Source of the DNA: Chloroflexota bacterium
Lineage (GTDB): Bacteria; Chloroflexota; Dehalococcoidia; E44-bin15
Assembly (NCBI GenBank): GCA_030604825.1
Contig: JAUVVB010000001.1
Span: 56,702 to 120,701 of the forward strand
DNA: 64,000 nucleotides
Direction: 5' to 3'
The notes under the pieces are model-generated. The model had not been told where the DNA came from and made no database searches. It was given only the letters and a program-made list of their open reading frames with translations. Positions within the stretch are counted from its first letter, which is position 1, and the number at the start of each line of letters is the position of its first letter. Positions 42,632 through 64,000 of the stretch are shown here, piece by piece. The translations under genes were made by a program, and so were the position numbers.

Positions 42632-42660
42632 AGAGGACCTCCTTGAGAAACCCTGCCTTC

Positions 42661-43946: not shown

Positions 43947-43997
43947 ACAGCACCTCCCTAAGGAATTTCGCCTACTTTGAAGTACGCCTCCTTAACT

Positions 43998-44918
43998 TCA
44001 AAGTAGAGGTTTTTTTAGACCGTACACTATGCCCTTGTTTCTACGGGCTTCAAATCCGTCCCTGTTTAGCCAAGAAACAATGGTCCTGTAAGTTTCTTTC
44101 TCTCCCGCTTTATGATATGTTGCGATTGCCAATTTTACATCGTTGTCCTTCAAGGTTTCCTTCATCCCTTTGTATGCCTCGATCTCCGCACCTTCGACGA
44201 TCATTTTTATGAAATCAACCTTGTTTACACCCAATTCCCTCAATATATTATCCAATGTATCTACTTCGACCTCCATAAATCTACCCCTGCAACGTACGAA
44301 ACTATGCCCTGATGTATTCTCTTTGATAAAAAGCTTTAGCCTGTCCTTTCTGCTCCAAACGCCCTTCGGAACTATCACCACATTGTTTAGCCCGTTTGCC
44401 CGAATATTTCTTTCCAAGACCCTTAAATTATCCATCTCAGGCTCTATTGCAACGACCATGCCCCCATCCCCCACAGTTTTTGCTGCTCTCACCGTAAACG
44501 TCCCTATGTGTGCCCCTACATCTACAACGATGTCACCCTTTTTGACCTTATAATACTTTTGGTATATCTCGTCCCTATACTGCTGCACTAACTGGCGCCA
44601 AAGGGTTCCAAAGTATTCAATTGTCACTATTTTAGTGAGTATGTGCTGATTTCCATACCTAGAGCGAATTCTAGTAGAAAAGTCAAGTATGCTGTCTTGT
44701 TTTTCCCCGTCTGGCTGAGCATAAAACTTAACGCCATCGTTAAGCTCCACGCGCAAGGATCCGTCTTCTAGCTCTTCTACCTGAGTTATAATTTTACTTA
44801 AGGCATCTAGAGGATTATAATACCTGAAAAGAAGGCTTCTCAGAAAATCTTTAAATCTACCTTCAGGGAGTATACTACTAATTGCCTTTCTTCCCCATTC
44901 TATCAATGTATGCGTCAT
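43998..44918 (-). CDS. FkbM-family methyltransferase
   Basis: DIVVDVGAHIGTFTVRAAK SAM-binding motif, 306 aa; AT-rich. Confidence 0.7.
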   Translation of the reverse strand: MTHTLIEWGRKAISSILPEGRFKDFLRSLLFRYYNPLDALSKIITQVEELEDGSLRVELNDGVKFYAQPDGEKQDSILDFSTRIRSRYGNQHILTKIVTIEYFGTLWRQLVQQYRDEIYQKYYKVKKGDIVVDVGAHIGTFTVRAAKTVGDGGMVVAIEPEMDNLRVLERNIRANGLNNVVIVPKGVWSRKDRLKLFIKENTSGHSFVRCRGRFMEVEVDTLDNILRELGVNKVDFIKMIVEGAEIEAYKGMKETLKDNDVKLAIATYHKAGEKETYRTIVSWLNRDGFEARRNKGIVYGLKKPLL

Positions 44919-45020
44919 TTATACACCTCCACAATTACCCTTTTGCCCCAAGCCTCTGAGAGCGGCAGGTGGCCCCCTGGTTCTCCCGGTAAATATATTT
45001 GACCCGGGTATCTGCAAAGC

Positions 45021-51416: not shown

Positions 51417-52376
51417 TCACCTCCTATTCTCCCGATACCAGCGGACAAAGAGGGGTATGCCCTCCTCTATGCTTACCTTAGGCTCGTAGCCGAGAAGGGC
51501 CTGGGCCTTGGAGATATCAGCCAGGGTGACGGGCACCTCCCCAGATTGTGGTGCCAGGTTCCTGGTCCTGGCCTTCTTGCCCAGGGCTTCTTCGATCAGC
51601 TCGAGGAGATATCTGAGATCCACGGCCTCTCCCCTACCTAGGTTAAAAATGTGGAAGCCTTTTTCCTGTCGGACGAGGGCAGCCTCAAAACCAGCTATGA
51701 TGTCGTCAACATAGGTGTAGTCCCTTTTGGCGGTGCCATCGCCAAAGAGGGTAACCTCCTCCCCCTGATCTACCATTTTGACAAAGCGATGGATGGCCAT
51801 CTCCGGTCTCTGGCGAGGCCCGTACACCGTGAACAATCTGAACACCACAAGGGGCAAGGGGTAAAGGTAGCTATAGGTGCGGCAGAAGAGCTCCGCCGCT
51901 GCCTTGGAGGCGGCATAGGGCGAGATAGGGTAACTCACCTTGGCGTCCTCGTTGAACGGAGCCTTTCCATTGAGGCCGTAGACAGATGACGAGGAGGCGA
52001 AGAGGAACTGCTTGACCCCGGAGGCTCGGCAGGCCTCTAGCAGGTTTATTGTCCCCTTTATATTGACATCTTGGTACAGGAGTGGCTGCTCTAGGGAGGG
52101 CCTGACCCCGGCGCGAGCCGCAAGATGCACCACCGCGCCGATGCCGTTCTCCGAGAAAACATGGCCTAAGAGGAGAGCATCCCGGATGTCCCCCTCTACT
52201 AGCAGGAAGCCATCTTTTTCTCGCAGGGCATGGATATTCTTCCACTTGATGGCCGGGGAGTAAGAATCATCGAAGTTGTCCAACCCCACCACCTGGTACC
52301 CCAGACAGAGCAGCCGCTCCACTAGGTGGGAGCCGATAAAGCCGGCGGCACCGGTGACCAAGACTGCTTTTTTCAC
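51417..52376 (-). CDS. NAD-dependent epimerase/dehydratase (UDP-sugar 4-epimerase-like SDR)
   Basis: VLVTGAAGFIGSHLVERLL Rossmann N-terminus; catalytic YAASK. Confidence 0.8.
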   Translation of the reverse strand: MKKAVLVTGAAGFIGSHLVERLLCLGYQVVGLDNFDDSYSPAIKWKNIHALREKDGFLLVEGDIRDALLLGHVFSENGIGAVVHLAARAGVRPSLEQPLLYQDVNIKGTINLLEACRASGVKQFLFASSSSVYGLNGKAPFNEDAKVSYPISPYAASKAAAELFCRTYSYLYPLPLVVFRLFTVYGPRQRPEMAIHRFVKMVDQGEEVTLFGDGTAKRDYTYVDDIIAGFEAALVRQEKGFHIFNLGRGEAVDLRYLLELIEEALGKKARTRNLAPQSGEVPVTLADISKAQALLGYEPKVSIEEGIPLFVRWYRENRR

Positions 52377-53353
52377 GTCTCCTTCCCCTGTTCCTCTGTC
52401 CCCTCCTCGTCCTCTTCCTTCTCCTTTAGTCTGGGTGTAGTGGCTGGTGACGGGCGAGCGTACCTGCTCAGGCCTTTGAAGTTCAACCCCACCCAGGCAA
52501 AACCTACGCCAAACACAGCCCCCATTATCAGGGCGTTTCGACCCCTTATCTTGTCCGGGGGCACCAAAGTTGGAGCTGAGGGGTCTCCGATGATAAGGCG
52601 ACCGAGCACCTCCGGCTCGACGGGATCGGCGGTGGACAACGATACCAGTTGGGCGGACAAGGTATCGAGTTCTCTTTGTAGCGCCCTGACCCTAGCATCG
52701 GTCATGACATAGGCTACGTCCAGCTCGAGCAGGTCGGCGTCCACGAGCCCGTCAACCCCGGTTTGCGTCGCCAGGTCAGCGAGCTCGTTTCTGGCTTCAA
52801 CCAGGTCGGCACTGACGCTGCCGAACCTCGCCTTCACGTACTGGTACTCTTTCTGCTGCAGATCGCGTTCTTCCGCCGTCAAATAATCCTGGAAGACCTG
52901 CGGTGCGATGCCAGCGAGAAAGAAAGCCTCGCCCTCGCTGGGGCTGGTCATCCTCACAGAGACAAGGGGGTTGTCGCTTGAGTATTCGTATCTAACTCTC
53001 ATCATTTCCTCCAGCTCCTGGAGGGTGTGAGAATACCGGGGGGCCAGAACCTCCACCTCATGGCTGAAGAACTCAAGGAAAGAAGAGGTGCCCATCTTGG
53101 CGGCGTAGTACTCTCCTTCATATTGGAGGCTTTTCACACTCCTGTAATACGAGCCGGGGGGCATGAGTTCGAGGGTCACTGTGCTTTCGTAGAGGTCAGG
53201 CGGGCTATTGAAGTGAATGGGTGGCCATCCCATTTCGGCTTCGGCATTTATAGGGCTGATGTGCCAATAGCCCAGGCCCAACAGACCCCCCACGATAAGC
53301 CCCAGCAACAAAATCAAAATCGAGCGGCGGCTGAAAAACGGAACCATGTTCAC
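52373..53353 (-). CDS. wzz: polysaccharide chain-length determinant (Wzz/PCP) protein
   Basis: N- and C-terminal TM helices (ILILLLGLIVGGLLGL...; ALIMGAVFGVGFAWVGL) flanking a coiled-coil periplasmic region. Confidence 0.7.
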   Translation of the reverse strand: MNMVPFFSRRSILILLLGLIVGGLLGLGYWHISPINAEAEMGWPPIHFNSPPDLYESTVTLELMPPGSYYRSVKSLQYEGEYYAAKMGTSSFLEFFSHEVEVLAPRYSHTLQELEEMMRVRYEYSSDNPLVSVRMTSPSEGEAFFLAGIAPQVFQDYLTAEERDLQQKEYQYVKARFGSVSADLVEARNELADLATQTGVDGLVDADLLELDVAYVMTDARVRALQRELDTLSAQLVSLSTADPVEPEVLGRLIIGDPSAPTLVPPDKIRGRNALIMGAVFGVGFAWVGLNFKGLSRYARPSPATTPRLKEKEEDEEGTEEQGKET

Positions 53354-53360
53354 TACCTCC

Positions 53361-54488
53361 TCACACTTCTAGTTTACTTGCCTCCAGACCGAACTCGGAA
53401 AAGTCCCGAAAGCAGTCACAGACATAGCCTATTTCCTCGGCGGTGAGCTCAGGGTACATGGGAAGGGAGAGTATCTCCCCGCTAACCTCCTCGGTGACGG
53501 GCAAAAAGGCATCGTTGCCGCAATAGCCTCGGCAGGCCTCCTGCAAATGGATGGGGATAGGGTAATGTATTCCTGTGGCTACGCCTTTGGCTTCCAGCCA
53601 GGCGCGAAGCTGGTCACGGTTTGGGGTTCTGATGACATAGAGATGGTAGACATGCTTGGCCCAGGGCATCTGCTGTGGTTTGGTCACCGATGAGGGCAGG
53701 CCTGCCTCATAGGCCTGGGCAAGGCTGCGCCGCCTTTCGTTCCACTCATCCAGGTGGGGGAGCTTTACCCTGAGCACAGCAGCCTGGATCTCGTCAAGGC
53801 GGCCATTAACCCCCAACAGATGGTGATGATATTTGGCATCCTGGCCATGGTCTCGCAGCATCTTGGACTTCCTGGCTATATCGGGGTCGGAGGTTACCAT
53901 CATTCCTGCCTCGCCATAGGCCCCCAGGTTCTTGGTGAAATAGAAGCTGAAACATCCGACATCCCCCAGGGAACCGGTGCGGCACCCTTGGCATTCAGCA
54001 CCATGGGCCTGACAGGCATCCTCGATAACCTTGAGGTTGTAAGTTCGGGCCAGCTCCAAGATGGGCCCCATGTCGGCGGGGTGCCCATATAGATGGACGG
54101 GGAGGATGGCCCTGGTCCTGGCGGTGATCCTACTTTCTATCTGGGAGGGGTCCATGTTATAAGTGTGGGGGTCGATGTCGACGAAGACGGGCCTGGCCCC
54201 CACCAGGGCTATGGCTTCGACGGTGGCAAAGAAGGTATGGGAAACAGTGATCACCTCATCCCCTGGCCCCACCCCACAGGCGCGCAGGGCTAGGTGCAGG
54301 GCTTCGGTCCCCGAGCCCACGCCGATGGCAAATTCGGTGCCACAGTAGCGGGCGAACTCGGCCTCCAACGCCTGAACATTCTGGCCCAGGAAGAGCTGCA
54401 TTCCTTCCAGAGCCTCACCTATCCCAGCCAGAACCTCTGCTCTAATGGCCTGATACTGTTTCTTTAGGTCAACGAAGGGTATAAACAT
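53361..54488 (-). CDS. DegT/DnrJ/EryC1/StrS PLP-dependent sugar aminotransferase (WbpE-like)
   Basis: 375 aa; CFSFYFTKNLGAYGEAGMMV (PLP-Lys region). Confidence 0.8.
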   Translation of the reverse strand: MFIPFVDLKKQYQAIRAEVLAGIGEALEGMQLFLGQNVQALEAEFARYCGTEFAIGVGSGTEALHLALRACGVGPGDEVITVSHTFFATVEAIALVGARPVFVDIDPHTYNMDPSQIESRITARTRAILPVHLYGHPADMGPILELARTYNLKVIEDACQAHGAECQGCRTGSLGDVGCFSFYFTKNLGAYGEAGMMVTSDPDIARKSKMLRDHGQDAKYHHHLLGVNGRLDEIQAAVLRVKLPHLDEWNERRRSLAQAYEAGLPSSVTKPQQMPWAKHVYHLYVIRTPNRDQLRAWLEAKGVATGIHYPIPIHLQEACRGYCGNDAFLPVTEEVSGEILSLPMYPELTAEEIGYVCDCFRDFSEFGLEASKLEV

Positions 54489-55140
54489 CTTTTAACCTCT
54501 CTATGAGATGGCTGTAGGGCTTGTCCCTAAGGCCGTTGGTACAAACCAAGTCCTCTATCCTGCCCCTGACCTGAGCCGGGTTGCCGTAGGCCACTGCCCC
54601 AGGCGGGATGTCTTCGGTGACCACGCTTCCGGCGCCAATCAGGGCATATTCTCCTATAGTGACTCGAGGGAGCACGCAAACATTGATGCCGATCTGAGCC
54701 CCCCTTTTGATAAGGGGACCTCTCATGCACTCCGCGGCATCGGGGCACCCGGGGTGAAGATCATTAGCTAGGATAACGCCAGGCCCTAAAAAGGCATCGT
54801 CCTCGATAGTGGTGAACTGAGTGATATAGACATTGTGATGGATCTTGACGTTATTCCCTATCCTGCAGCCGTAGTCGATGGTGGAGTTGCTCCAGATGCG
54901 GAGGTTATCTCCGACGAGGTTTTGCTCCCTGATGACCACATTGTGGCCGGTTTCCAGATTGCAGCCGATGCAGCTGCCGCCATAGATAACGGTGCCACTC
55001 CGAATACGGGCGCTGGGCCCGATGATGAGCAGGTGGTCGTCGCCCTGGGCCGGAGGGTAGCCGAGAACCACCCCCAAATCGATCACCGCACCTTCCCCTA
55101 ACCGTACCGCAGAGCTATTTTGCCTTTGACCTTTCATCAA
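54469..55140 (-). CDS. hexapeptide-repeat sugar N-acetyltransferase (WbpD/PglD-like)
   Basis: Left-handed beta-helix repeats (IGNNVKIHHNVYI..., IGINVCVLPRVTIGEYALIGAGSVV). Confidence 0.75.
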   Translation of the reverse strand: MMKGQRQNSSAVRLGEGAVIDLGVVLGYPPAQGDDHLLIIGPSARIRSGTVIYGGSCIGCNLETGHNVVIREQNLVGDNLRIWSNSTIDYGCRIGNNVKIHHNVYITQFTTIEDDAFLGPGVILANDLHPGCPDAAECMRGPLIKRGAQIGINVCVLPRVTIGEYALIGAGSVVTEDIPPGAVAYGNPAQVRGRIEDLVCTNGLRDKPYSHLIERLKDVYTLR

Positions 55141-56198
55141 CGTTTCCCCTGAATAAGCTTTGCTGAACAGCCCTCAGCAATAGCCATAGTCGAGGGCAGC
55201 TTCTCTCGCCGGCCTCCGTTCAAAAGGGACCTATTTGCTGCTTCTAGGATATTGACTATCTTGAGCCCCGCCCAGCCATCGCTCCTGGGCCTCTTGCCTT
55301 CAGTTATGCACTGCAAGAAGTGGCTGCACTCCAACTTCAAAGGCTCGGCATTGGAAATGAAGGGGATGGTCACATCGCCGTGGCGATAACTGGGGGGCCA
55401 GGCGGCGAACTTATCAGCGTTGGCGGGAATGGCTACTCCCTTATCGTAGATGCGTATCTTTTCCGCCTCCGACACGTCGTCATAGATCACCATCTTCTTG
55501 CTGCCGACGATGGTGATCTGGCGCACCTTACAGGGGTCAAGCCAGCTCACGTGCAAATGGGCCAGGGCCTCGCCGGGGAATCTGAGCTCCAGATAGGCCA
55601 CATCGTAAACAGCGGCGTCGATATGGCCCCCTCCCCTGGCGCTTACTGTGATGGGTTCCCCATCCAGCAGGGCAACCACGATACAGATGTCGTGGGGGGC
55701 CAGGTCCCAGAGGACATTGACGTCAGGACGGAACAGGCCCAGATTGAGCCGGGCAGCATCGATATAGTAGATCTCTCCCAGCTCCCCGCTCTTCACCAGT
55801 TGCCGCAGGAAGTCCACGGCTGGATGATATTCATAGGTATGCCCTACCATCAGCACCCGGTTTCGCTTCTCGGCCAGCTCAATGAGCTCCACCGCCTCCC
55901 GGCTGCTGGCAGTTATGGGCTTTTCCACCAGGACATGCTTATCGTGGAGCAGTGCCTCCCTGGTCAGACGATAGTGGGAGCAGACCGGGGTGGCTACTAC
56001 CACGGCGTCCACATCGCCCTTAAGCAGGTCCCCGAAGTCGGAGGTAGTCACCACATAGGGATATTGCCTTCGGACCTGTTCGAGCCTGTCCTGCTCGAGG
56101 TCACAGACCATGGTCACGTTTGCCCCCGCCAGCTCGTGAAAATTCCTGACGTGCTTCGGCCCCCAATAGCCGCAACCGACGATGCCCACATTAACCAT
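55137..56198 (-). CDS. Gfo/Idh/MocA-family UDP-sugar oxidoreductase (WbpB-like)
   Basis: VNVGIVGCGYWGPKHVRNF N-terminal Rossmann fold; 353 aa. Confidence 0.75.
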   Translation of the reverse strand: MVNVGIVGCGYWGPKHVRNFHELAGANVTMVCDLEQDRLEQVRRQYPYVVTTSDFGDLLKGDVDAVVVATPVCSHYRLTREALLHDKHVLVEKPITASSREAVELIELAEKRNRVLMVGHTYEYHPAVDFLRQLVKSGELGEIYYIDAARLNLGLFRPDVNVLWDLAPHDICIVVALLDGEPITVSARGGGHIDAAVYDVAYLELRFPGEALAHLHVSWLDPCKVRQITIVGSKKMVIYDDVSEAEKIRIYDKGVAIPANADKFAAWPPSYRHGDVTIPFISNAEPLKLECSHFLQCITEGKRPRSDGWAGLKIVNILEAANRSLLNGGRREKLPSTMAIAEGCSAKLIQGKR

Positions 56199-56889
56199 CT
56201 CGCATCTCCTTTAGCTCTCGGTAGCTGCCGTCCCTCCCCAGGACGGTGCCCACGGTTAGCAACATGATTTTGCCGTCCAGAAGCGGCGACTGCCTCTCTA
56301 CGTAGTCGATATCGAGGCGCACCATTTGGTCAAAGGAAAGGCCAGCCCGCCCACATACCTGCCATAGCCCCGTGATGCCCGGTTTGACTGAAAACCTCTT
56401 TTTGTGCCAATCTTCATACAGCTCCACAGCGAAGGGAATATCCGGTCTGGGGCCGACAAAGGACATCTCTCCCTTCAGCATGTTGAAAAGCTGGGGAAGC
56501 TCATCTAGGTTGGTCTTGCGCAGCAAAGCACCCACTCGGGTCACCCGCGGATCATCAGCGACCTTATACACCGGCCGCCCTTGGCGGTCTACTCCATAGG
56601 GGACACCTTGGGTGATAAGCCTCCTCAAATATGCCTTGTAATCGCTGTCGTCGTTATTCACATGCATGGTCCGGAATTTGTAAGCGGTGAATCTGCGACC
56701 GTCCTTCCCCACCCGCTCCTGGGCGAATATCGGACTTCCAGGCGAATCGACCCTGATCCCGATTGCTAGTAGAGCCAGGAGCGGGGATAAAACCACTATG
56801 CCCAGCACCGCCAGCAAACGGTCAAAGACACCCTTCCAGCAGGAATAGGCAAATAGGCGGCGAACTCCTTTGCCCTCTAGGATGGCCAT
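56191..56889 (-). CDS. undecaprenyl-phosphate sugar phosphotransferase (initiating bacterial sugar transferase, PglC/WbaP C-terminal type)
   Basis: N-terminal TM then [15 protein letters not shown]...GPRP...[22 protein letters not shown]-like motifs. Confidence 0.8.
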   Translation of the reverse strand: [232 protein letters not shown]

Positions 56890-57022
56890 ATGTTCAGACT
56901 CCCCTTTCGGTCCACTAGGGCTGCTACCGCCAGGGCATCCACCAGGTGGCTGCCAATGAATCCGGCCCCGCCGGTAACCAAGATCTTCTTTCCCGCTAGT
57001 TTCATCGCTTTTACTCGCTGGC

Positions 57023-58405
57023 TTAGCTTTGAATCGACTCTACCGCTTCCAATTCTAGCTGGATTTTGTGCTTGACCAACGCTGCCTTTGGCTGCTTACG
57101 GCTGATCTCTCCACGGCCCACACCCTCGTATATGAACCCTGCTTTAATCATCTGCTCGGGGTCATAGAGGTTGCGACCATCAATGAGGATGGGGCAGTTC
57201 ATCGAAGAACTGATCCTTCTCATATCTAGCTCTTTGAACTCATCCCACTCGGTAACCAGTATGAGGGCGTCGCTGCCCTCGGCTACTTCATAAGCGTCAG
57301 CACAATAGGTCACCGTGGGCATGAGTTTAGCTGCAGTCTTCATCGCTACCGGGTCGTAGGCTTTTATTCGGCAGCCTTGCTCCTGGAGGAGAGAAATGAC
57401 CGACAGTGATGAGGCCTCGCGCATATCGTCCGAATTGGGCTTGAAAGAAAGCCCCAGGATGCCGACGGTCTTGCCTTTTGTCGAGCCGAGCAGCTTTTGA
57501 AGCTTTGCCACCACCATTCGAGGTTGGCGAAGGTTGACCCTGAGCACTGAGCGAATCAGTGGGGCAGAGACCCCCCGGCTTGCCGCCATATAGATTAGAC
57601 CCCTTACATCCTTGGGCAAACAGCTACCACCCCATCCCAAACCCGCCCCCAGATAGCCGTCACCACATCGAGGTTCCATACCAACTACCCTGGCCACATC
57701 CACAACGTTGACTCCCAACTTGTCGCAAAGTAAGGCAATTTCATTGATAAAGCTGATCCTGGCAGCAAGGAAGGCATTTGACGCATACTTAGACAACTCC
57801 GCGGTCCGAGCATCGCACAGGATAATGGGGCAACCCAATGGCTCATAGAGCTGGGCCACGGCCTGAGCAGCGTTCACATCTGCTGAACCCACAACCACCC
57901 GGATGGGATGGAGGAAGTCGAAGACCGCCAAGCCCTCCCGTAAGAACTCGGGATTGGATACTACAGCAAAATTGTGGTTGCTCCGCTTGTAGCGGGCAAT
58001 TATTCCAGCCACAAGGTCAGCAGTGCCTACCGGCACCGTACTCTTGTTGACCACAATGATGGGTCCGTTGGCTGCCTCGGCGATGCCCCTGGCCGCTGAG
58101 CGTACCCATCTCAGGTCAGGTCTTCCGTTTCTGGTCGATGGTGTGCCCACAGCAATAAAGACGAATTCACTACCGTCTAACCCTTGTTCATAGTCGCTGG
58201 TCAGGCGTAACCTTCCCCCTGCCCAGTGGCGTTGCCAAAGCTCAGGCAGGTCTGGCTCGTGAACCGGCAACACCCCCTGCTCCAGGGCATTTAACCTCTC
58301 ACCATCGATCTCCAACAGGGTTACCCGATGGCCGAGTTCAGCGAAACAGGCCGCTGTGACCAGGCCTACGTATCCTGCTCCGATAACGCTGATACTTTTC
58401 ACCAT
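57023..58405 (-). CDS. UDP-N-acetyl-D-glucosamine/mannosamine 6-dehydrogenase (WbpA/WecC family)
   Basis: Start moved to ATG 58405 (MVKSISVIGAGYVGL) behind GGAGGT; catalytic GGSCLPKD; the track ORF extends 20 codons upstream and would overlap the next gene. Confidence 0.8.
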   Translation of the reverse strand: MVKSISVIGAGYVGLVTAACFAELGHRVTLLEIDGERLNALEQGVLPVHEPDLPELWQRHWAGGRLRLTSDYEQGLDGSEFVFIAVGTPSTRNGRPDLRWVRSAARGIAEAANGPIIVVNKSTVPVGTADLVAGIIARYKRSNHNFAVVSNPEFLREGLAVFDFLHPIRVVVGSADVNAAQAVAQLYEPLGCPIILCDARTAELSKYASNAFLAARISFINEIALLCDKLGVNVVDVARVVGMEPRCGDGYLGAGLGWGGSCLPKDVRGLIYMAASRGVSAPLIRSVLRVNLRQPRMVVAKLQKLLGSTKGKTVGILGLSFKPNSDDMREASSLSVISLLQEQGCRIKAYDPVAMKTAAKLMPTVTYCADAYEVAEGSDALILVTEWDEFKELDMRRISSSMNCPILIDGRNLYDPEQMIKAGFIYEGVGRGEISRKQPKAALVKHKIQLELEAVESIQS

Positions 58406-58434: not shown

Positions 58435-61020
58435 TTATTCGACGGAAAGCTTTCCCCTCCTCCACGCCTGGAGGAAGATGCTCACCACTTGGGGATCGAA
58501 GCGCCGCCCCGAATCAGCAGCAATCTCCTTTACCGCCGCCTCCGGGTCTAACGCCCCCAGAGGCGACCGCCCCGAGGTCATGGCATCAAAGGCATCGGCG
58601 ATAGCTAGAATCTTCGCTCCCAATGGAATCTCCCCACCCTTTAGGCCGGAGGGGTAACCGGTGCCGTCATATCTCTCATACATGTGCGAGGCGAGCGACA
58701 AGGCCGGCGCCAGAAAGTCAACCCGTGACAGCGCCTCTTCCATAGCGGCCAGGCGTTCTCTCAGCCTAGCCCACCGCTCAGCAGTGAGCCGCCTCCTCCC
58801 ATCAAGCACCTCCTGAGAAGCTGAAGCAAGGCCCAGATCCTTAAGCAAGGCGGCATAGTGGAGTGCCTGCCGTTCACCTCCGAGTAGCTTGAGGTCGGTA
58901 GCGATCGCCGGAGCATACCTTGACACCCGTCGGCCGCTATCCAAGTCAAAGAGATACCTCGCCCGTACCGACTTGGCGATCTCCCCGGTGAGGACCAGCA
59001 TAGCCTCCAAGGCGGCAAGCTGCTCGACCTCCTGCTCGAGGATGCGGTCTTGCTGCCTTTCCAGATCGCTACTGAGGTCGTCCGCCAGGAGCAAAGCGCG
59101 ATTACAGAGCACTTCGAGCTCTCGCACCCTGCAGTCGATGGTCTCTAGCCTTTCAACCAAGGCCGATGACACTTGCTCTCCGGTCGACGACAGCAGATAG
59201 CGAATATCCTTGAGCTCGGCCCGCGCCGCCTGGCCACTCCTCTCGTGCTCAGATTGCAGGCGGTTGATTCGCTCCACCCCGCTCCGCCACCTTTTGGGGA
59301 CAAAGACGGTGAAAACTGTCCCTTCCTCTTGCCCGCTTTTAACCTCAACCTTGCCCCCCAAGCCCTGCACCAATACCATGGCTAGGTGGAGAGCGTTTCT
59401 TCGGCCACCACCGATCATGCCCTCCCCTTGAGCCCGAAAGAGCATTGCCAGTTCGGGTGGGGGGATGTGGCGATTGCGGTTGATGATCTCCACGGCGATA
59501 AAGCCCTCCCTCGCCTCGGAGACGCTCACCAGCAGCCGGTCGCCAGGCGCACTTGACTCAACTTCGCTTCTCAATAGATAGAATAGACCCTGAGTAAGAC
59601 TCCTTTCATCCACTATCAGCTGGCTGATGTCCTCAGCCCCTTGGGTATCAACCTCCACCCCCCTCTCCTCAGCCAGTCCCTGCACCAGCTCCATAACCTG
59701 GTCAAGGGTCTTTTTGAGGTCCACCTCATCCAAAGTGGTCCCAACTGCACCCCCCTCGACCCATTCCAGGCTCTCGAGTTCCTTGAGGGTGCCCAGGAGT
59801 TGCCCGGTGCTCTCTTTAATCGATTCCAAGCTGCTCACCTGCTGGGAGTCCAAATTCTCAACCCGGCCCCTGAGTAGTGAGTCCACACAACCCCTTATCC
59901 CGTTGATCGGCGCTTCCACTTCCCTGGCCACAAAGGTGATCCACGCCAACGCCCCCTGCATCGCCCTCAGCTCTTCTCGATATGAGGATGGTATACCTTT
60001 GGGGGCGAGGGGCGGTTGTGCCCCAATATCGTTCTGTCGCTGGTCAAAGCGATAGTTATTACCGGGAAGGCGCTTGATATAATCTAGTAGCTCGGCAGCT
60101 ATCTCGTTGGCCTGCAGATAACTGTCGATTCTCCGCCTCTCGTTGGTAACCACCGCGATGGAAAGGGTCATGATCGGCCACTGCTCCCGCTGACCCAATC
60201 GGCCATCGTATTCGATGTAGCCCCGCTGTAAGTCCTTGGGGTGGTACAGGGTCCTGATACGGCTATCGAACGCGGCGATAATCCGCTGACAGAGAGTTTG
60301 CGCCCTTTGGGGCGTGGTGATAACTACGAAATCATCGCCATCCCGGTGTCCCACCAAATCATCTGGATTGCCAAACAGGCGCGCCGCCTCACGCAGTATC
60401 TCAGCCAGAAGCCGGATTGCGCGGTCACCTTGAGCGAAGCCATACACATCGTTGAAAGCCTTGAGAGAATCCATGTCCACATACATGACAGCCAAGGGCT
60501 TATTCTGTCCGATCAAGGCATTGATCTCGGTATTTATCTGGGGGCTGCTCGGCAACCCGCTCAGCCGATTTACGTTTTTCTCCTGCTCTGCTCGTCTTAA
60601 GTGGGCTTCTACCAAAGCCACGACCTCAGCAGGGGCGAAGGGTTTGGTGATATAATCCTCAGCCCCCACAGCTATGCCTGCTATGATATCCTTGCTCTCC
60701 ACCTTAGCACTGATCATTATCACCGGGATCTGGCTGGTCTGTCGGCTCTGCTTTAGGCGCCAGCAAACGTCAAGGCCGTCCAGATCGGGAAGCACTACAT
60801 CGAGCAGGATCAAATCCGGCCTCTCGCTAGAGGCCTTAGCCAAAGCCTGGATCCCATTCACCGCTGAGAGAACCTCGAAATTGGCATGCCGCAAGTTTGC
60901 CTCCAAGATTTGAATTACCCCTGGGTCATCATCGACCACCAGGATAGTCCTTCCCGTTCGGTTTATGGCGCCGCCCGTCATACCAATGCCTCTTTGACTT
61001 CTTCCCCGCCAAACCCCCAT
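58435..61020 (-). CDS. multidomain signalling protein: REC - degenerate GGDEF - degenerate HisKA/HATPase-like core - coiled coil - degenerate HD-GYP
   Basis: REC intact (DD, LILLDVVLPDLDG, MISAK, YITKPF). GGDEF region YVDMDSLKAFNDVYGFAQGD...GHRDGDDFVV (DGDDF instead of GGEEF). Middle AREVEAPINGIRG (no His) and HATPase-like blocks. C-terminus ALLKDLG...SHMYERYDGTGYPSGL...ADAFDAMTSGR (KD instead of HD). Confidence 0.7.
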   Translation of the reverse strand: MGVWRGRSQRGIGMTGGAINRTGRTILVVDDDPGVIQILEANLRHANFEVLSAVNGIQALAKASSERPDLILLDVVLPDLDGLDVCWRLKQSRQTSQIPVIMISAKVESKDIIAGIAVGAEDYITKPFAPAEVVALVEAHLRRAEQEKNVNRLSGLPSSPQINTEINALIGQNKPLAVMYVDMDSLKAFNDVYGFAQGDRAIRLLAEILREAARLFGNPDDLVGHRDGDDFVVITTPQRAQTLCQRIIAAFDSRIRTLYHPKDLQRGYIEYDGRLGQREQWPIMTLSIAVVTNERRRIDSYLQANEIAAELLDYIKRLPGNNYRFDQRQNDIGAQPPLAPKGIPSSYREELRAMQGALAWITFVAREVEAPINGIRGCVDSLLRGRVENLDSQQVSSLESIKESTGQLLGTLKELESLEWVEGGAVGTTLDEVDLKKTLDQVMELVQGLAEERGVEVDTQGAEDISQLIVDERSLTQGLFYLLRSEVESSAPGDRLLVSVSEAREGFIAVEIINRNRHIPPPELAMLFRAQGEGMIGGGRRNALHLAMVLVQGLGGKVEVKSGQEEGTVFTVFVPKRWRSGVERINRLQSEHERSGQAARAELKDIRYLLSSTGEQVSSALVERLETIDCRVRELEVLCNRALLLADDLSSDLERQQDRILEQEVEQLAALEAMLVLTGEIAKSVRARYLFDLDSGRRVSRYAPAIATDLKLLGGERQALHYAALLKDLGLASASQEVLDGRRRLTAERWARLRERLAAMEEALSRVDFLAPALSLASHMYERYDGTGYPSGLKGGEIPLGAKILAIADAFDAMTSGRSPLGALDPEAAVKEIAADSGRRFDPQVVSIFLQAWRRGKLSVE

Positions 61021-61057: not shown

Positions 61058-61098
61058 GTTAGAACGGAGTTGGAGCTTGGTCAGAAAAACGTTAGAAT
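61058..61098 (+). promoter_or_regulatory. two GTTAGAA boxes 33 bp apart (plus an inverted TCTAAC at 61044) near the 5' end of the divergent signalling gene
   Basis: GTTAGAAC at 61058-61065, GTTAGAAT at 61091-61098. Confidence 0.4.
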
Positions 61099-61192
61099 TT
61101 GGGACTTCAGTACTAGAGGGCAGGATTCAGCAGGGTGACCTGCTTGACAAATCAAAACGGTACCACATGCAGCGACACTCCATGACGAGGTT

Positions 61193-61256
61193 GGTTAGAG
61201 CAGGTTAGAAAGAGGTTAGAAAAAGGTTACAACCTTTAGAATTTAACGGTTAGAAT
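61193..61256 (+). promoter_or_regulatory. array of 5-6 direct repeats GGTTAGA(A/G) phased at 10-11 bp, upstream of the OmpR-type response regulator gene
   Basis: GGTTAGAG 61193, GGTTAGAA 61203, GGTTAGAA 61214, GGTTACAA 61225, TTAGAA 61236, GGTTAGAA 61249; same 7+4 architecture as 38544-38584. Confidence 0.55.
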
Positions 61257-61299: not shown

Positions 61300-61328
61300 T
61301 TGACAAATACGAATTCGGTATCTATGAT
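61300..61328 (+). promoter_or_regulatory. candidate sigma70-type promoter of the response-regulator/histidine-kinase operon
   Basis: TTGACA (61300-61305), 17-nt spacer, TATGAT (61323-61328); lies 44 bp downstream of the repeat array and 185 bp upstream of the ATG. Confidence 0.45.
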
Positions 61329-61513: not shown

Positions 61514-62233
61514 TTGGCTGCAGCAATACCGAGAGGGATTGATACTATGAAGGAGAAGATCCTGGTGATCGACGATGACCCCGAGCTTTTGGGCTTGGCT
61601 CAGAACTGGCTGCAAAATGCCGGATACGAGGCGCTCATCGCAGAAGACGGGATTGAGGGGCTTCGTCAGGTGTATAGCGCTCGTCCCCATCTAGTGCTCC
61701 TGGATATCCGCATGGCGCGCATGGATGGTTGGGAGGTCTGTCGCCGCATTCGGGAGATGTGCGACATGCCCATCATCATGGTAAGCGTGAACGGGGAAAA
61801 AGCCGATTTGCTCCGGGCATTCAACCTTGGTGTCGATGACTACGTTACCAAACCCTTTCACTTCCCGGAGTTGATAGCCCGGGTGCAAGCTGTTCTGCGC
61901 CGGTCCAGTGCCAGTTGGCCACAGGATAATAACAGCACCTTCCACAACGAGGAAATAGATATAGATTGGCGAAGCCGCCAGGTGTGGGTTCGAGGGCAGC
62001 GAGTGGCGGTTTCGCCCACGGAGTTCCGGCTGTTGTCTTGCTTGATTGAGAACCGGGGCTGGATTGTTACCCATGATGAGCTGTTGCGGAAGGTGTGGGG
62101 GCCGAACTACTTCGGCGAGAGAAGCTACGTCAAGCTATACATTAGATACTTGCGCCAGAAAATAGAGAGAGACCCTAGCAACCCGGAGTGGATCTTAACC
62201 GAAAGGGGTGTAGGATACCGATTCTCGACCTAG
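61514..62233 (+). CDS. OmpR/PhoB-family response regulator (REC + winged-helix)
   Basis: ILVIDDDPELL, LVLLDIRMARMDG, IIMVSVNG, DYVTKPF; C-terminal winged helix (...YVKLYIRYLRQKIE...RGVGYRF). Confidence 0.85.
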   Translation: MAAAIPRGIDTMKEKILVIDDDPELLGLAQNWLQNAGYEALIAEDGIEGLRQVYSARPHLVLLDIRMARMDGWEVCRRIREMCDMPIIMVSVNGEKADLLRAFNLGVDDYVTKPFHFPELIARVQAVLRRSSASWPQDNNSTFHNEEIDIDWRSRQVWVRGQRVAVSPTEFRLLSCLIENRGWIVTHDELLRKVWGPNYFGERSYVKLYIRYLRQKIERDPSNPEWILTERGVGYRFST

Positions 62234-62267: not shown

Positions 62268-64000
62268 ATGGTAAGGCAAGCATCATCTAATCGGGCGCCC
62301 AAAGTTGGTAGTGGGGCTGACTCGGGGCAGGAGGTGGGGTTGAAAGGGGTTGACTTTGCTCGGCTTCGGGCAGAGCGGACACCCTCAGAGGAGATGCCTC
62401 CGTCTGGTTACCCACCGGACATGTTGGGGCGGCAACTAACCCTCCTCAAGGTGATCAGCAGCCAGCTGGTCGGCGATCCCTCAGCGGAGGAGCTGGCGCA
62501 GGCGGCGTTTCTGCTGAGATATGTGATTCCGGGGATCGATAAGTGCTTCCTGCTCCTTTTCAATCCTATGGAGCAGCTCCTTCTCCCAGAGGCTGCGGCT
62601 CATTTCTCCCCCGAATTCGTTTCCGCCTTGATCCAGGCTGAGCGGAGAACGCGTCTTCTGACCGCAGCCGCCGAGCAAGCAAACCAATCGCTGGTAATCG
62701 ATCTTCCCAGTACCCGGCGGTTCGGCCCTTTATGGAGATTGGCCCGAGGGGAGGGTATAGAGTCTCTGTGGTTGATTCCACTGCGTGACAGGGATGGCAG
62801 TCTGTTAGGCTCAATCGTATTCGCCTCCTGCCAAGCCTTCTCCCCTACCAGCCATGCTTTGGCCCTGGCGACGCTCCTAGCTGACTGGATGGCAGTGGCG
62901 CTTGAGAAGGCGGAGACCCGACGAGATAGCGAAAGGTTCAAAGCTGCTTTCGACAGCGCTGGCGATGCCATGATGATCGTTGACGGCGACCGGAGGATAG
63001 TCGCCTTCAACCATGCCTCAGAGAAGTTAACCGGGTGGCAGGGAGAGCAGGCTGTGGGGCAGCATTGCTGGGAGATCTACCTTTGTGGTAACGGCAGCAC
63101 CGCGGGGCAGAGGGGCTATCCCTGCCCGATGGCAGGTAAGCAGGAATGCACCTTCACCAGCAGGGAGGGGAAAGAGGTCGCTGTGTCCATGAGCCACGCA
63201 CCATTGTCCTCCCCACCATATCATGAAGAAGGACACCAGATCGTCATTGTGCGCCACATCCCCCTTCAAAAACAGAGGAGGGGCACCAAGCCGGATGTCA
63301 TTGCCGCGGTGTCTCACGAGTTGCTCTCTCCTCTCACCTTGATCAAGGGGTATGCTGCCACCTTGTTACAACTTGGTGAAACCATCACCGAGGAGCAGAG
63401 GAGACAGTATTTTCGAGGCATTGAATCCGCTACCAGCCGACTAACTCGGTTAGCGGAGAACTTGGTAAATGTCTCCCGTCTCGAGGCTGGCCACCTCGAC
63501 CTCGCCGTCGAACCCACTTCCCTACCCGGGCTGCTACGGAAGAGCGTGACTGAAGTGCAGGGCCAGACCACTCAGCATGTAGTTAAACTCTTCCTGCCTC
63601 GCTCCTTGCCCCTGGTTTATGTTGACCGCCAGAAGATCGAGCAGGTGATAATGAATCTTCTAGTCAACGCGGTGAAATACTCGCCGCACGGGGGTGATAT
63701 CGAGGTTTCGGTAAAGCAGGTCCGGGATGAAGAGGAGCTGGTGGCAATTTGGGGAGAGGCATCTTGGGTAAAGCCCCCCTGCTTGATTGTGGCGGTTAGG
63801 GATTCGGGGGTGGGCATACCTGAGGATGAGCTGGAGCGGGTTTTTGAGAAGTATTACCGCGTGGACAACAGATTGATTCGCGCTACCTCAGGAGCAGGCC
63901 TAGGCCTTTATATTTGTAAGGTTATCGTGGAGGCCCACGGCGGTCATATCTGGGCGAGAAGCAAGGTGGGGGAGGGCAGCACCTTCAGCTTTTCCCTGCC
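62268..64000 (+). CDS. sensor histidine kinase (GAF-like + PAS + HisKA + HATPase_c), 3'-partial, runs off window end
   Basis: Open frame (codon phase 0) from ATG 62268 to the window end, so absent from the ORF track; H-box AAVSHELLSPLTLIKGY, N-box NLLVNAVKYSPHGG, G1 VRDSGVGIPEDE, G2 GAGLGLYICK; PAS segment carries a Cys cluster. Confidence 0.8.
   Translation, partial: MVRQASSNRAPKVGSGADSGQEVGLKGVDFARLRAERTPSEEMPPSGYPPDMLGRQLTLLKVISSQLVGDPSAEELAQAAFLLRYVIPGIDKCFLLLFNPMEQLLLPEAAAHFSPEFVSALIQAERRTRLLTAAAEQANQSLVIDLPSTRRFGPLWRLARGEGIESLWLIPLRDRDGSLLGSIVFASCQAFSPTSHALALATLLADWMAVALEKAETRRDSERFKAAFDSAGDAMMIVDGDRRIVAFNHASEKLTGWQGEQAVGQHCWEIYLCGNGSTAGQRGYPCPMAGKQECTFTSREGKEVAVSMSHAPLSSPPYHEEGHQIVIVRHIPLQKQRRGTKPDVIAAVSHELLSPLTLIKGYAATLLQLGETITEEQRRQYFRGIESATSRLTRLAENLVNVSRLEAGHLDLAVEPTSLPGLLRKSVTEVQGQTTQHVVKLFLPRSLPLVYVDRQKIEQVIMNLLVNAVKYSPHGGDIEVSVKQVRDEEELVAIWGEASWVKPPCLIVAVRDSGVGIPEDELERVFEKYYRVDNRLIRATSGAGLGLYICKVIVEAHGGHIWARSKVGEGSTFSFSL

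What the first reader, a model, noticed from the sequence alone, without database searches (positions are those of the whole stretch)
58435..61020. 861-aa signalling protein in which GGDEF, kinase core and HD-GYP are all degenerate but REC is intact
The receiver domain keeps every phosphorylation residue. GGDEF reads DGDDF, losing the first Gly of the A-site. The central HisKA-like helix lacks the phospho-His (AREVEAPINGIRG) and its HATPase-like part lacks G1/G2 boxes. The C-terminal HD-GYP retains GYP (YDGTGYPSGL) but has KD in place of the metal-binding HD dyad and SH for HH. A phosphorylatable scaffold built from three catalytically compromised c-di-GMP/kinase modules suggests a c-di-GMP or protein-partner sensor rather than an enzyme. 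It is divergently paired with the response-regulator/kinase operon and shares its repeat-containing control region.
Basis: seen in the sequence. Interest (0 to 1): 0.55.

Follow-up and report, generated by a model that had tools for sequence, protein, structure and literature searches.

The report
Five-domain pseudo-enzyme regulator heading a glycan operon
This gene encodes a large signalling protein whose cyclase-, kinase- and phosphodiesterase-like parts have all lost their catalytic residues; it is conserved in Dehalococcoidia bacteria as the first gene of a cell-envelope sugar operon, so it most likely works as a phosphorylation-controlled adaptor, not as an enzyme.

Summary
ORF 58435-61020 (-) encodes REC, GGDEF-like, DHp-like, CA-like and HD-GYP-like domains; the real start is probably M14 (848 aa). 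The phospho-His is Arg366. The N, G1 and G2 boxes are gone. Only 2 of 8 HD-GYP metal ligands remain (HD->KD; HH aligns to M780-Y781, not 'SH'). GGDEF reads DGDDF and has no RxxD I-site. About 55 orthologs (41-100% identity), all from Dehalococcoidia/Chloroflexota where named, share these losses (KD 54/55; never a phospho-His). In every orthologous locus with enough flank, the gene leads a WbpA/B/D/E-like glycan operon, opposite an OmpR-type regulator/kinase pair. Phased TTCTAAC repeats lie between them. In Eisenbacteria the equivalent is two genes, with an intact kinase and HD-GYP, so this protein looks like a fusion that later lost catalysis. Its GGDEF-like domain belongs to an uncharacterised, widely conserved 'GHxGGDDF' subfamily. 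Most likely it is a non-catalytic, phosphorylation-responsive adaptor. A c-di-GMP receptor role has little support, and residual cyclase activity is not excluded. The canonical REC is clade-specific (16/55). It is a new variant of a known kind, of moderate interest.

The parts
58435..61020 (-). Whole ORF (861 aa from the first ATG; the probable true start is the ATG at 60981, giving 848 aa; stop codon at 58435-58437)
60601..60951 (-). Receiver (REC) domain, aa 24-140, with D30, D31, D74, S104 and K126 all present. Helix alpha1 (aa 33-48) is among the most conserved segments of the protein.
60031..60573 (-). GGDEF-like domain, aa 150-330, of the 'GHxGGDDF' subfamily. The motif here is GHRDGDDF. 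NPDD replaces the RxxD I-site. The substrate- and metal-type residues D182, K187, N190 and D199 are kept.
59746..59988 (-). DHp-like (HisKA-like) helical hairpin, aa 345-425, with R366 where the phospho-accepting His should be
59281..59733 (-). CA-like (HATPase_c-like) domain, aa 430-580, lacking the N-box Asn (S485), the G1 box (NRNRH) and the G2 box (RRNALHL)
58951..59280 (-). Helical linker/stalk, aa 581-690. The model shows one 66-residue helix. It carries the highly conserved segment RELEVLCNRALLLAD (aa 633-647).
58471..58950 (-). HD-GYP-like domain, aa 691-850. Substitutions: K727-D728 for HD, S695 for the first His, R756 for H250, M780-Y781 for HH. GYP (788-790), D809 and D812 are kept.
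61058..61255 (+). Five GTTAGAA repeats (TTCTAAC in the target gene's orientation) at 61058, 61091, 61204, 61215 and 61249, in the divergent intergenic region. They are conserved in the orthologous loci, four of which share an 11+22 bp phasing.
61300..61328 (+). Sigma-70-like promoter (TTGACA-17-TATGAT, 11 of 12 matches) facing the regulator/kinase operon. The repeats lie upstream of its -35 hexamer.
61550..62233 (+). Divergent OmpR-type response regulator (Response_reg + Trans_reg_C)
62268..64000 (+). Canonical GAF-PAS-HisKA-HATPase histidine kinase (SHELLSPL, NLLVNAVKY, DSGVGIP, GAGLGL). It runs off the end of the window and its start is approximate.
53361..58405 (-). The co-directional downstream genes of the operon: UDP-sugar 6-dehydrogenase, Bac_transf initiating sugar transferase, GFO/IDH/MocA oxidoreductase, hexapeptide acetyltransferase and DegT aminotransferase. 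The minus-strand gene run continues to about 41500.

Best explanation
The protein is a non-catalytic, phosphorylation-responsive signalling adaptor, i.e. a pseudo-enzyme response regulator.

Origin (inferred from collinearity): it arose when a REC-GHxGGDDF response regulator fused with its neighbouring kinase-HD-GYP partner. The two GAF domains were lost, followed by the kinase His, the ATP-binding boxes and most of the HD-GYP metal ligands.

Expression (context shown, regulation inferred): it is made as the lead gene of a cell-envelope glycan operon. That operon is controlled by the divergent OmpR-type two-component system through phased TTCTAAC repeats.

Proposed mechanism (inferred):
1. Phosphorylation of Asp74 changes how REC helix alpha1 sits on the His-less DHp-like hairpin. 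This resembles the way phospho-DivK is read by the pseudokinase DivL.
2. The change is relayed through the long stalk helix to a metal-free HD-GYP-like module.
3. That module acts by binding a protein partner. Candidates are the neighbouring kinase or regulator (feedback, RetS-like) or the glycan-initiating machinery.

Shown here: the domain anatomy, the loss of catalytic residues, family-wide conservation, synteny, the conserved repeats and purifying selection. Inferred: the phosphorylation source, the intramolecular switch and the identity of the partner.
For: Domain architecture and residue losses.

Losses are fixed across 55 orthologs:
- KD in 54/55.
- The H-box position is never His.
- The G1 box is N-x-N.

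All domains are under purifying selection. Whole-gene omega is 0.12-0.22 in five of six ortholog pairs (0.44 in the sixth, window-L004), against 0.06-0.14 for neighbouring enzymes.

The best solved-structure matches for the kinase core are the pseudokinases DivL and RetS.

Gene order is strictly conserved in every locus with enough flank, down to 41% identity:
kinase <- OmpR regulator <- | -> target -> UDP-sugar DH -> Bac_transf -> GFO -> Hexapep -> DegT.

TTCTAAC repeats are conserved in all six intergenic regions examined. Four loci share the same 11+22 bp spacing.

The Eisenbacteria two-gene arrangement has an intact kinase and HD-GYP.

The most conserved segments are REC alpha1, the GGDEF-like loop before the motif, a stalk segment, and the KD and IPLGA-ILA-AD-FD segments.

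Precedents for non-catalytic relatives acting by protein contacts:
- TmoK (PMC4686200)
- Inactive RpfG-family proteins (bioRxiv 10.1101/2021.11.05.467447)
Against: - No partner has been identified, and no experiment exists for any family member.
- REC alpha1 of the target differs from alpha1 of the neighbouring OmpR regulator at most positions. Nothing therefore shows that the adjacent kinase phosphorylates it.
- Only 16/55 orthologs keep the full REC residue set, so phosphorylation cannot be the universal input.
- The DHp-like hairpin, which the model makes the switch surface, is the least conserved domain.
- The kinase-like part is only 22% identical to the Eisenbacteria kinase, so the fusion scenario rests on collinearity.
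- In the window's own lineage omega is elevated: 0.44 overall and about 0.67 in the CA-like and HD-GYP-like parts.
Confidence: 0.5

Rival explanations
1. Cyclic-dinucleotide receptor. The metal-free HD-GYP-like pocket, or the GGDEF-like domain, binds c-di-GMP, cGAMP or pGpG. Binding controls glycan synthesis together with REC phosphorylation, as in DvhD, LapD or FimX.
For: - DvhD shows that an HD-GYP lacking HD (SQ) and HH (MN) can be a sub-micromolar, metal-free c-di-GMP receptor (PMC13090378).
- DvhD's HD-GYP is among the best PDB sequence matches (9rbz).
- M814 and R818 of this protein match DvhD M646 and R650.
- The KD and IPLGA...AD.FD segments lining the former active site are among the most conserved in the protein.
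Against: - DvhD contacts Y652/R653 are P820/L821 here.
- Across the family the R650 equivalent is Arg in only 10/55, and the motif S-x-R-x-Y-[KR] reads S-G-L-S-P-Q.
- There is no RxxD I-site: NPDD, with no Arg in 55/55.
- TmoK is a probable relative of the GGDEF-like module, although its sequence was not verified here. It binds no c-di-GMP.
- No other GGDEF, EAL, HD-GYP or PilZ motif was found in the window.
Confidence: 0.15
2. The GGDEF-like domain is still a working nucleotide cyclase, or another palm-domain enzyme, switched on by REC phosphorylation. The rest of the protein is regulatory.
For: - A GGDDF enzyme (GSU1937) is active in vivo (PMC8835794).
- The parent subfamily keeps GHxGGDDF, FKxxNDxYG and a C-terminal Lys invariant across several phyla, which suggests a functional site.
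- This protein keeps D182, K187, N190, D191, D199, D229, D230 and K316, as well as an intact REC.
- REC and GGDEF-like are the most constrained domains.
Against: - The first motif Gly, at least 90% conserved in the parent family, is Asp here.
- Only 5/55 orthologs keep GGDDF. There are 17 motif variants, GGDNF is commonest, and the parent-invariant D191 is kept in 4/55.
- The TmoK REC-REC-GGDEF fragment made no c-di-GMP in vitro.
- The PleD R446 equivalent is Asn/Ser.
Confidence: 0.12
3. Mostly a relic. Only the REC domain matters, for example as a phosphate sink that buffers the neighbouring two-component system. The three enzyme-like domains are decaying passengers.
For: - The target is always less conserved than its neighbours: 41-74% against 57-85% identity.
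- Omega is 0.44 overall and about 0.67 in the CA-like and HD-GYP-like parts for the window-L004 pair.
- The GGDEF motif is highly variable.
Against: - A full-length ~850-aa ORF is kept in about 55 lineages down to 41% identity.
- Omega is 0.08-0.38 for the pseudo-domains in the other pairs.
- K727-D728 is fixed in 54/55, and stalk and HD-GYP-like segments are among the most conserved.
- The REC domain itself is the part that loses canonical residues in 39/55 orthologs.
Confidence: 0.1

Closest known systems
DivL (Caulobacter, PDB 4q20) and RetS (Pseudomonas, PDB 6dk8/7n0e) pseudo-histidine kinases
   Same: They are the best sequence and fold matches for residues ~345-580. The DHp-CA fold is kept while the phospho-His (DivL has Tyr) or ATP-binding capacity (RetS) is missing. 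From general knowledge, both signal by binding a response regulator (DivK~P) or another kinase's DHp (GacS), and RetS controls exopolysaccharide output.
   Different: Here the His (Arg366) and all ATP-binding boxes are lost together. The module lies between a REC-GGDEF-like unit and an HD-GYP-like unit in one soluble protein. No partner is known.
DvhD (Desulfovibrio vulgaris) non-catalytic HD-GYP c-di-GMP receptor (PDB 9RBZ/9RC0; PMC13090378)
   Same: An HD-GYP fold preceded by a long dimerising stalk helix. HD and HH are replaced (SQ/MN there, KD/MY here). It is metal-free by sequence and is a regulatory rather than catalytic module.
   Different: DvhD is a dCache-TM-PAS-HD-GYP membrane receptor of the Lap-like adhesin system. 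Its c-di-GMP contacts (R650, Y652, R653) are not conserved in this family.
TmoK (MXAN4445, Myxococcus xanthus; PMC4686200)
   Same: A hybrid kinase with a REC-REC-GGDEF C-terminus whose GGDEF lacks catalytic and I-site residues. It shows no cyclase activity and no c-di-GMP binding, and its deletion raises exopolysaccharide about 3-fold. Myxococcota proteins of the same length and architecture (e.g. P0059, 1110 aa) carry a REC-GHxAGDDF module about 40% identical to residues 14-335 of the target.
   Different: TmoK's kinase core is predicted to be active, and it has no HD-GYP. I could not verify TmoK's own sequence, so its membership of the GHxGGDDF subfamily is probable but not shown.
RpfG-family response regulators (REC-HD-GYP) and their inactive members (HnoD, PA2572)
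   Same: REC plus HD-GYP in one regulator. Inactive members act through protein-protein contacts and can control exopolysaccharide (bioRxiv 10.1101/2021.11.05.467447).
   Different: NCBIfam scores are far below the cut-offs: NosR family 153 against 400, PleD family 146 against 474. Two further pseudo-enzyme modules lie between REC and HD-GYP. The K-for-H replacement was not seen in the other HD-GYP loci fetched (a crude scan).
FimX / LapD-type all-degenerate c-di-GMP scaffolds (from general knowledge)
   Same: Multidomain proteins in which GGDEF and the phosphodiesterase domain are both degenerate and serve as sensor or adaptor modules.
   Different: [quoted passage not shown] Here the C-terminal module is HD-GYP-like, a pseudokinase core is inserted, and c-di-GMP binding is not supported by residue conservation.
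Eisenbacteria two-gene system (L010 5908-6942 and 6952-9669; L009)
   Same: Collinear with the target: REC-GHxGGDDF, then (GAF)-HisKA-HATPase-(GAF)-HD-GYP. The N-terminal module is about 40% identical and the HD-GYP 35% identical.
   Different: It is two separate genes with two GAF domains, and the kinase (SHELRTPL, NAVKF, DTGIGI, GTGLGL) and HD-GYP (HD, HHE) are intact in L010. It is not next to the glycan genes.

Membership tests
Response regulator receiver (PF00072) | Profile score above the curated cut-off | tested here: met
   98.5 bits against 30.2
Response regulator receiver (PF00072) | Acidic pair, phospho-Asp, Ser/Thr and Lys (CheY D12, D13, D57, T87, K109) | tested here: met
   D30, D31, D74, S104 and K126 are present here. 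Family-wide, the full set is kept in only 16/55; D74 is kept in 53/55 and K126 in 55/55.
Diguanylate cyclase (GGDEF, PF00990) | Profile score above the cut-off | tested here: met
   52.1 bits against 23.8, but only profile positions 18-110 of 161 align. The full fold is predicted.
Diguanylate cyclase (GGDEF, PF00990) | A-site motif [G/A/S]G[D/E]EF | tested here: not met
   DGDDF here. Glu never occupies position 4 in 55 orthologs.
Diguanylate cyclase (GGDEF, PF00990) | RxxD inhibitory site five residues upstream of the motif | tested here: not met
   NPDD, with no Arg at this position in any ortholog.
Diguanylate cyclase (GGDEF, PF00990) | Cyclase activity | not testable with these tools
   A GGDDF enzyme can be active (PMC8835794). 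The TmoK fragment is inactive.
GHxGGDDF REC-linked GGDEF-like subfamily (defined here, uncharacterised) | Invariant FKxxNDxYG, G-H-x-G-G-D-D-F, RGY and a C-terminal Lys | tested here: inconclusive
   The target has LKAFNDVYG, GHRDGDDF (first motif Gly replaced by Asp), RGY and K316. It is 36-52% identical to 21 members from several phyla. The fusion family as a whole has relaxed the motif.
Histidine kinase (HisKA PF00512 + HATPase_c PF02518) | HisKA profile above the cut-off and a phospho-accepting His in the H-box | tested here: not met
   22.7 bits against 26.9. R366 aligns with the His of HK853, ZraS, RetS and the L010 kinase. No ortholog has His at this position.
Histidine kinase (HisKA PF00512 + HATPase_c PF02518) | ATP-binding N box (Asn), G1 (DxGxG) and G2 (GxGxG) | tested here: not met
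   S485, NRNRH and RRNALHL. The HATPase_c profile itself scores 33.0 against 26.4.
HD-GYP c-di-GMP phosphodiesterase (PF13487) | Profile score above the cut-off and the GYP motif | tested here: met
   105.2 bits against 27.2. G788-Y789-P790 is present. In the family the motif is G48, Y22/H18, P38 of 55.
HD-GYP c-di-GMP phosphodiesterase (PF13487) | Eight metal ligands (PmGH E185, H189, H221, D222, H250, H276, H277, D305) | tested here: not met
   F691 (approximate), S695, K727, D728, R756, M780, Y781 and D809, so 2 of 8 are kept. Ala at six of these positions abolishes PmGH activity.
RpfG / NosR / PleD response-regulator families (NCBIfam) | Whole-protein score above the curated cut-off | tested here: not met
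   NosR family 153.5 against 400. PleD family 146.4 against 474.
DvhD-type metal-free HD-GYP c-di-GMP receptor | Canonical-site contacts M646, R650, Y652, R653 | tested here: not met
   M814, R818, P820 and L821 here. In the family: M36/L16, L23/R10, P31, Q20/R12. Binding itself cannot be tested here.
DivL/RetS-type pseudokinase (functional class) | DHp-CA fold without phosphotransfer chemistry, acting by binding a regulator or kinase | tested here: inconclusive
   Fold and loss of chemistry are met. Partner binding cannot be tested with these tools.

The most novel reading that the evidence does not exclude
The fixed Lys-Asp pocket of the HD-GYP-like domain may have been repurposed as a metal-free binding site for a small molecule. 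The still nucleotide-competent GGDEF-like domain may contribute as well. Candidate ligands are a nucleotide second messenger, possibly the unknown product of the uncharacterised GHxGGDDF family, or a UDP-sugar or lipid-linked intermediate of the operon. The protein would then be a coincidence detector of phosphorylation and metabolite level that gates envelope-glycan synthesis in Dehalococcoidia. A corollary is that GHxGGDDF response regulators, which are widespread in Clostridia, Myxococcota, Eisenbacteria and Chloroflexota, form a functional enzyme family with an undescribed product.
Probability: 0.12. Interest if true: 0.7.

Novelty: new variant of a known kind. Interest (0 to 1): 0.45.

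Why it matters
Degenerate GGDEF, EAL and HD-GYP domains and pseudo-kinases are each known as signalling adaptors. A single conserved protein that chains a receiver to three different inactivated enzyme modules has not been described.

Because it is fixed as the lead gene of a glycan operon across a whole class, Dehalococcoidia, it offers three things:
- A natural example of stepwise conversion of a two-gene enzyme system (still intact in Eisenbacteria) into a pure scaffold.
- A handle on how envelope-glycan synthesis is regulated in a poorly understood, mostly uncultured group.
- A pointer to an uncharacterised, deeply conserved GHxGGDDF branch of the GGDEF superfamily, whose invariance suggests a function that current annotation ('diguanylate cyclase-like') does not capture.

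Tried and rejected
- Rfam scan of the whole window: no RNA family, so no riboswitch explains the long intergenic region.
- Exact look-up of P0001's contig: not on record. Context was taken from orthologs instead.
The link stays probable only.
- Testing whether the neighbouring kinase phosphorylates both receivers by comparing REC alpha1 specificity helices: they are each conserved but unlike each other, so there is no support either way.
- Testing whether the pseudo-kinase derives from the neighbouring kinase or from the Eisenbacteria type: 22% identity to both, which is uninformative.
- Whole-model fold search: it only recovered the expected per-domain matches and nothing new for the stalk.
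- The 23-nt inverted repeat between 60923-60945 and 61559-61581 was considered as a regulatory element and rejected. It arises because the two divergent genes both encode ILV[VI]DDDP at their REC N-termini.
- The pseudogene idea was rejected: the ORF is intact in about 55 lineages and omega is below 0.25 in most pairs.
Full report
**The observation**

The window holds an 861-codon ORF on the minus strand at 58435-61020. An identical NCBI-derived protein (P0001) begins at Met14 and is 848 aa. An AAGAGG ribosome-binding site lies 9 nt upstream of that ATG (60981), and none precedes the first ATG, so 848 aa is the likelier product. I keep the 861-aa numbering below.

Pfam finds five modules:

| Module | Residues | Bits | Note |
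|---|---|---|---|
| Response_reg | 26-137 | 98.5 | |
| GGDEF | 161-251 | 52.1 | only the N-terminal two-thirds of the profile |
| HisKA | 364-424 | 22.7 | below the 26.9 cut-off |
| HATPase_c | 471-576 | 33.0 | |
| HD_5 (HD-GYP) | 696-845 | 105.2 | |

NCBIfam places the protein far below the cut-offs of the PleD and NosR/RpfG-type families. An AlphaFold2 model built on 55 orthologs has a mean pLDDT of 74. It folds all five domains as expected and shows a 66-residue helix leading into the HD-GYP-like domain. A Foldseek search returns WspR/PleD/DgcR for the N-terminal half and DivL, ZraS, HK853 and RetS for the kinase core.

**Residue-by-residue check**

- **REC:** D30, D31, D74, S104 and K126 are all present.
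- **GGDEF-like:** alignment to solved cyclases puts H225-R-D-G-D-D-F231 on R-x-G-G-[DE]-E-F, and N218-P-D-D221 on the RxxD inhibitory site. D182, K187, N190 and D199, which are the metal- and guanine-binding positions of PleD by general knowledge, are kept.
- **Kinase core:** the best PDB sequence matches are the pseudokinases DivL and RetS.
  - R366 sits on the phospho-accepting His.
  - S485 sits on the N-box Asn.
  - NRNRH sits on the G1 box DxGxG.
  - RRNALHL sits on the G2 box.
  - A direct comparison with an intact Eisenbacteria kinase shows the same replacements side by side.
- **HD-GYP-like:** the ligands were mapped onto PmGH, whose eight metal ligands are E185, H189, H221, D222, H250, H276, H277 and D305. 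Alanine at six of them abolishes its activity (PMC4159591).
  - The target has F691 (approximate), S695, K727, D728, R756, M780, Y781 and D809, so two of eight survive.
  - GYP (788-790), I798, D809 and D812 are kept.

**A conserved family, not a one-off**

A search of 5.8 billion proteins found about 56 full-length relatives (835-912 aa, 41-100% identity) with the same architecture. Every named source is a Chloroflexota, Dehalococcoidia or Dehalococcoidales MAG. Among one genome per GTDB species, full-length orthologs occur only in Dehalococcoidia/Chloroflexota (L004-L008).

Column counts over 55 orthologs:

| Position | Residues observed in 55 orthologs |
|---|---|
| H-box (366) | R27 K8 E8 T3 S3 G2, never His |
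| N-box (485) | S38 N10 |
| G1 box (514, 516) | N53-x-N32 |
| HD dyad (727-728) | K54/R1, D55 |
| HH (780-781) | R39..., Y45 |
| I-site | N50 P48 D48 D55 |

The GGDEF motif shows 17 variants (GGDNF 15, DGDDF 10, GSDNF 6, GGDDF 5 and others), and Glu never occupies position 4.

The losses are therefore old. The K-for-H replacement in particular is under selection, whereas the GGDEF motif is drifting.

'REC intact' is clade-specific. Only 16/55 orthologs, the window's own clade, keep the full quintet. In the rest D31 is H, A, S, G or N and/or S104 is Gly, although D74 (53/55) and K126 (55/55) persist.

Nei-Gojobori estimates show purifying selection on every domain:
- Whole-gene omega is 0.12-0.22 in five of six pairs, against 0.06-0.14 for neighbouring enzymes.
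- REC and the GGDEF-like domain are generally the most constrained, and the DHp-like hairpin is among the least.
- A few per-domain values could not be computed where dS was saturated.
- The window-L004 pair is elevated: 0.44 overall, about 0.67 in the CA-like and HD-GYP-like parts, against 0.21 for the adjacent dehydrogenase.

**Genomic context**

In every orthologous locus with enough flank (L001, L002, L005, L007, L008; L003 and L004 partially) the order is identical to the window:

kinase <- OmpR-type regulator <- | about 550-730 bp gap | -> target -> UDP-sugar 6-dehydrogenase -> Bac_transf -> GFO/IDH/MocA oxidoreductase -> hexapeptide acetyltransferase -> DegT aminotransferase -> further glycan genes

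From general knowledge, this enzyme set resembles WbpA/B/D/E, the pathway to a UDP-2,3-diacetamido uronic acid. That assignment is an inference from Pfam families only. In the window the minus-strand gene run continues to about 41.5 kb. The target's stop is 29 nt from the dehydrogenase start, which fits co-transcription.

The intergenic region carries five GTTAGAA repeats. The window holds 13 copies against 3.6 expected, and 0 of 100 shuffles reach 13. In the target's orientation they read TTCTAAC. They recur in all five other orthologous intergenic regions. Four loci (L001, L002, L005, L007) share an 11+22 bp phasing about 100-130 bp upstream of the target's start codon. This layout is typical of OmpR/PhoB-type operators, but the assignment is inferred. 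A strong sigma-70-like promoter (11 of 12 matches) faces the regulator operon just beyond the repeats. The neighbouring kinase is a canonical GAF-PAS-HisKA-HATPase protein.

**Origin**

In Eisenbacteria and several other phyla (L009-L017, L044) the query matches end to end over 3.2-3.7 kb. In L010 and L009 this span is two adjacent genes:
- A 322-344-aa REC + GGDEF-like protein with the motif FVGH[IV]GGDDF.
- A GAF-HisKA-HATPase-GAF-HD-GYP protein of about 900 aa or more. In L010 (905 aa) the kinase (SHELRTPL, NAVKF, DTGIGI, GTGLGL) and the HD-GYP (HD, HHE) are intact.

The Dehalococcoidia protein is collinear with this pair minus the GAF domains. It therefore most likely arose by fusion, followed by loss of catalysis. 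This is inferred from collinearity, because the kinase-like part is only 22% identical.

**The GGDEF-like domain is not simply a broken GGDEF**

Searching with the GGDEF-like domain alone returns a large family of ~310-aa REC + GGDEF-like regulators. They come from Clostridia/Bacillota (for example Acetivibrio clariflavus and Lutispora), Chloroflexota and other groups. The module is also the C-terminal part of ~1100-aa Myxococcota hybrid kinases, where the motif is AGDDF.

In a 22-sequence alignment these features are invariant:
- FKxxNDxYG
- G-H-x-G-G-D-D-F
- RGY
- a C-terminal Lys

This points to a distinct subfamily with a preserved site of unknown function. The fusion family has relaxed it: GGDDF survives in 5/55 and the invariant D191 in 4/55.

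The literature cuts both ways:
- GSU1937, a GGDDF protein, is an active cyclase (PMC8835794).
- M. xanthus TmoK is a 1110-codon hybrid kinase with a REC-REC-GGDEF C-terminus, the same architecture and length as subfamily member P0059. Its fragment neither makes nor binds c-di-GMP, and its deletion triples exopolysaccharide (PMC4686200).
- I could not verify TmoK's sequence.

**How it most likely works**

Kinase and phosphodiesterase chemistry can be excluded with high confidence. Cyclase chemistry is unlikely but is not excluded.

A cyclic-di-GMP receptor role lacks residue support:
- There is no RxxD I-site.
- The contacts used by the metal-free HD-GYP receptor DvhD (M646, R650, Y652, R653; PMC13090378) correspond to M814, R818, P820 and L821 here.
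- In the family consensus those positions read M/L, L, P and Q.

The most conserved 15-residue segments are the following:
- the loop before the GGDEF-like motif (211-225)
- a stalk segment, RELEVLCNRALLLAD (633-647)
- the KD segment (718-732)
- IPLGAKILAIADAFD (798-812)
- REC helix alpha1 (38-52), which is the surface receivers use to dock on a kinase DHp

The best-supported model is a phosphorylation-responsive adaptor. Asp74 phosphorylation alters REC docking on the His-less DHp-like hairpin, a remnant of the ancestral kinase-regulator pair and comparable to DivL reading DivK~P. The stalk relays the change to the HD-GYP-like module, which binds a partner. Because the gene is the first of the regulated operon, feedback on the neighbouring two-component system (RetS-like) or control of glycan initiation are the obvious outputs.

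Weak points of this model:
- REC alpha1 differs from that of the neighbouring OmpR regulator, so the phosphodonor is unknown.
- The DHp-like hairpin is the least conserved part.
- Most orthologs have a non-canonical REC.

I give this model about 0.5. The rivals are a nucleotide receptor (0.15), residual cyclase activity (0.12) and a relic or phosphate sink (0.1).

**Comparison and novelty**

Each ingredient has precedents:
- pseudokinases: DivL and RetS
- non-catalytic HD-GYPs: DvhD, HnoD and PA2572
- degenerate GGDEF adaptors: TmoK, and FimX/LapD from general knowledge

Literature searches found no description of this five-domain chain or of any such protein in Dehalococcoidia. It fails the defining catalytic features of diguanylate cyclases, histidine kinases and HD-GYP phosphodiesterases, so it should not be filed as a member of any of them in the functional sense. 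It is a new variant of a known kind, the pseudo-enzyme signalling scaffold.

Interest is moderate. The anatomy, the evolutionary path and the strict operon linkage are clean. There is no experimental handle yet, and the organisms are mostly uncultured.

Noticed in passing
window 38544-38583 (with 38427-38433): A second cluster of the same heptamer (TTCTAAC on the + strand at 38544, 38555 and 38577) has the same 11+22 bp phasing as the orthologous target promoters. It lies 135-175 bp upstream of a BacA/UppP undecaprenyl-diphosphatase gene (37522-38409, minus strand). This suggests the OmpR-type regulator controls a small envelope regulon.
   Followed up: partly
P0126-P0245; L010 5908-6942; L009 5956-6924; C-termini of P0059-P0094: A widespread, uncharacterised REC + GGDEF-like subfamily has invariant FKxxNDxYG, G-H-x-G-G-D-D-F, RGY and a C-terminal Lys, and no RxxD. 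It occurs as stand-alone ~310-aa regulators in Clostridia/Bacillota and Chloroflexota, as a separate gene in Eisenbacteria, and as the C-terminal module (AGDDF) of ~1100-aa Myxococcota hybrid kinases. The invariance suggests a functional site that differs from canonical cyclases.
   Followed up: partly
L009 6351-9731: One Eisenbacteria HK-HD-GYP partner already has R-D in place of H-D (ILRDVGM) while keeping HHE and an intact kinase. This may be an intermediate on the way to the K-D state.
   Followed up: no
window 60923-60945 and 61559-61581: A 23-nt, 91% complementary inverted repeat spans the intergenic region. It is explained by the two divergent genes both encoding ILV[VI]DDDP at the start of their receiver domains, not by a regulatory structure.
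   Followed up: yes
window 38865-41021 (-) and 40000-46000: A 718-aa predicted surface protein has a Pel9A-like beta-helix, a Pro/Thr-rich C-terminal linker and a hydrophobic tail. The adjacent part of the glycan cluster drops to 40-48% G+C against 55-60% elsewhere, which suggests a horizontally exchanged, variable section.
   Followed up: no
window 58438-60981 versus L004 8-2548: The window's nearest relative differs at 26% of residues, yet dS is only 0.33. This gives omega 0.44, about twice that of the adjacent dehydrogenase (0.21) and well above the other ortholog pairs (0.12-0.22). It reflects either recent relaxation or adaptive change in this lineage, concentrated in the CA-like and HD-GYP-like parts.
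   Followed up: partly
window 52373-53353 (-) and orthologous 418-aa genes in L001/L002: Conserved operon genes with no Pfam match sit among the glycan enzymes.
   Followed up: no
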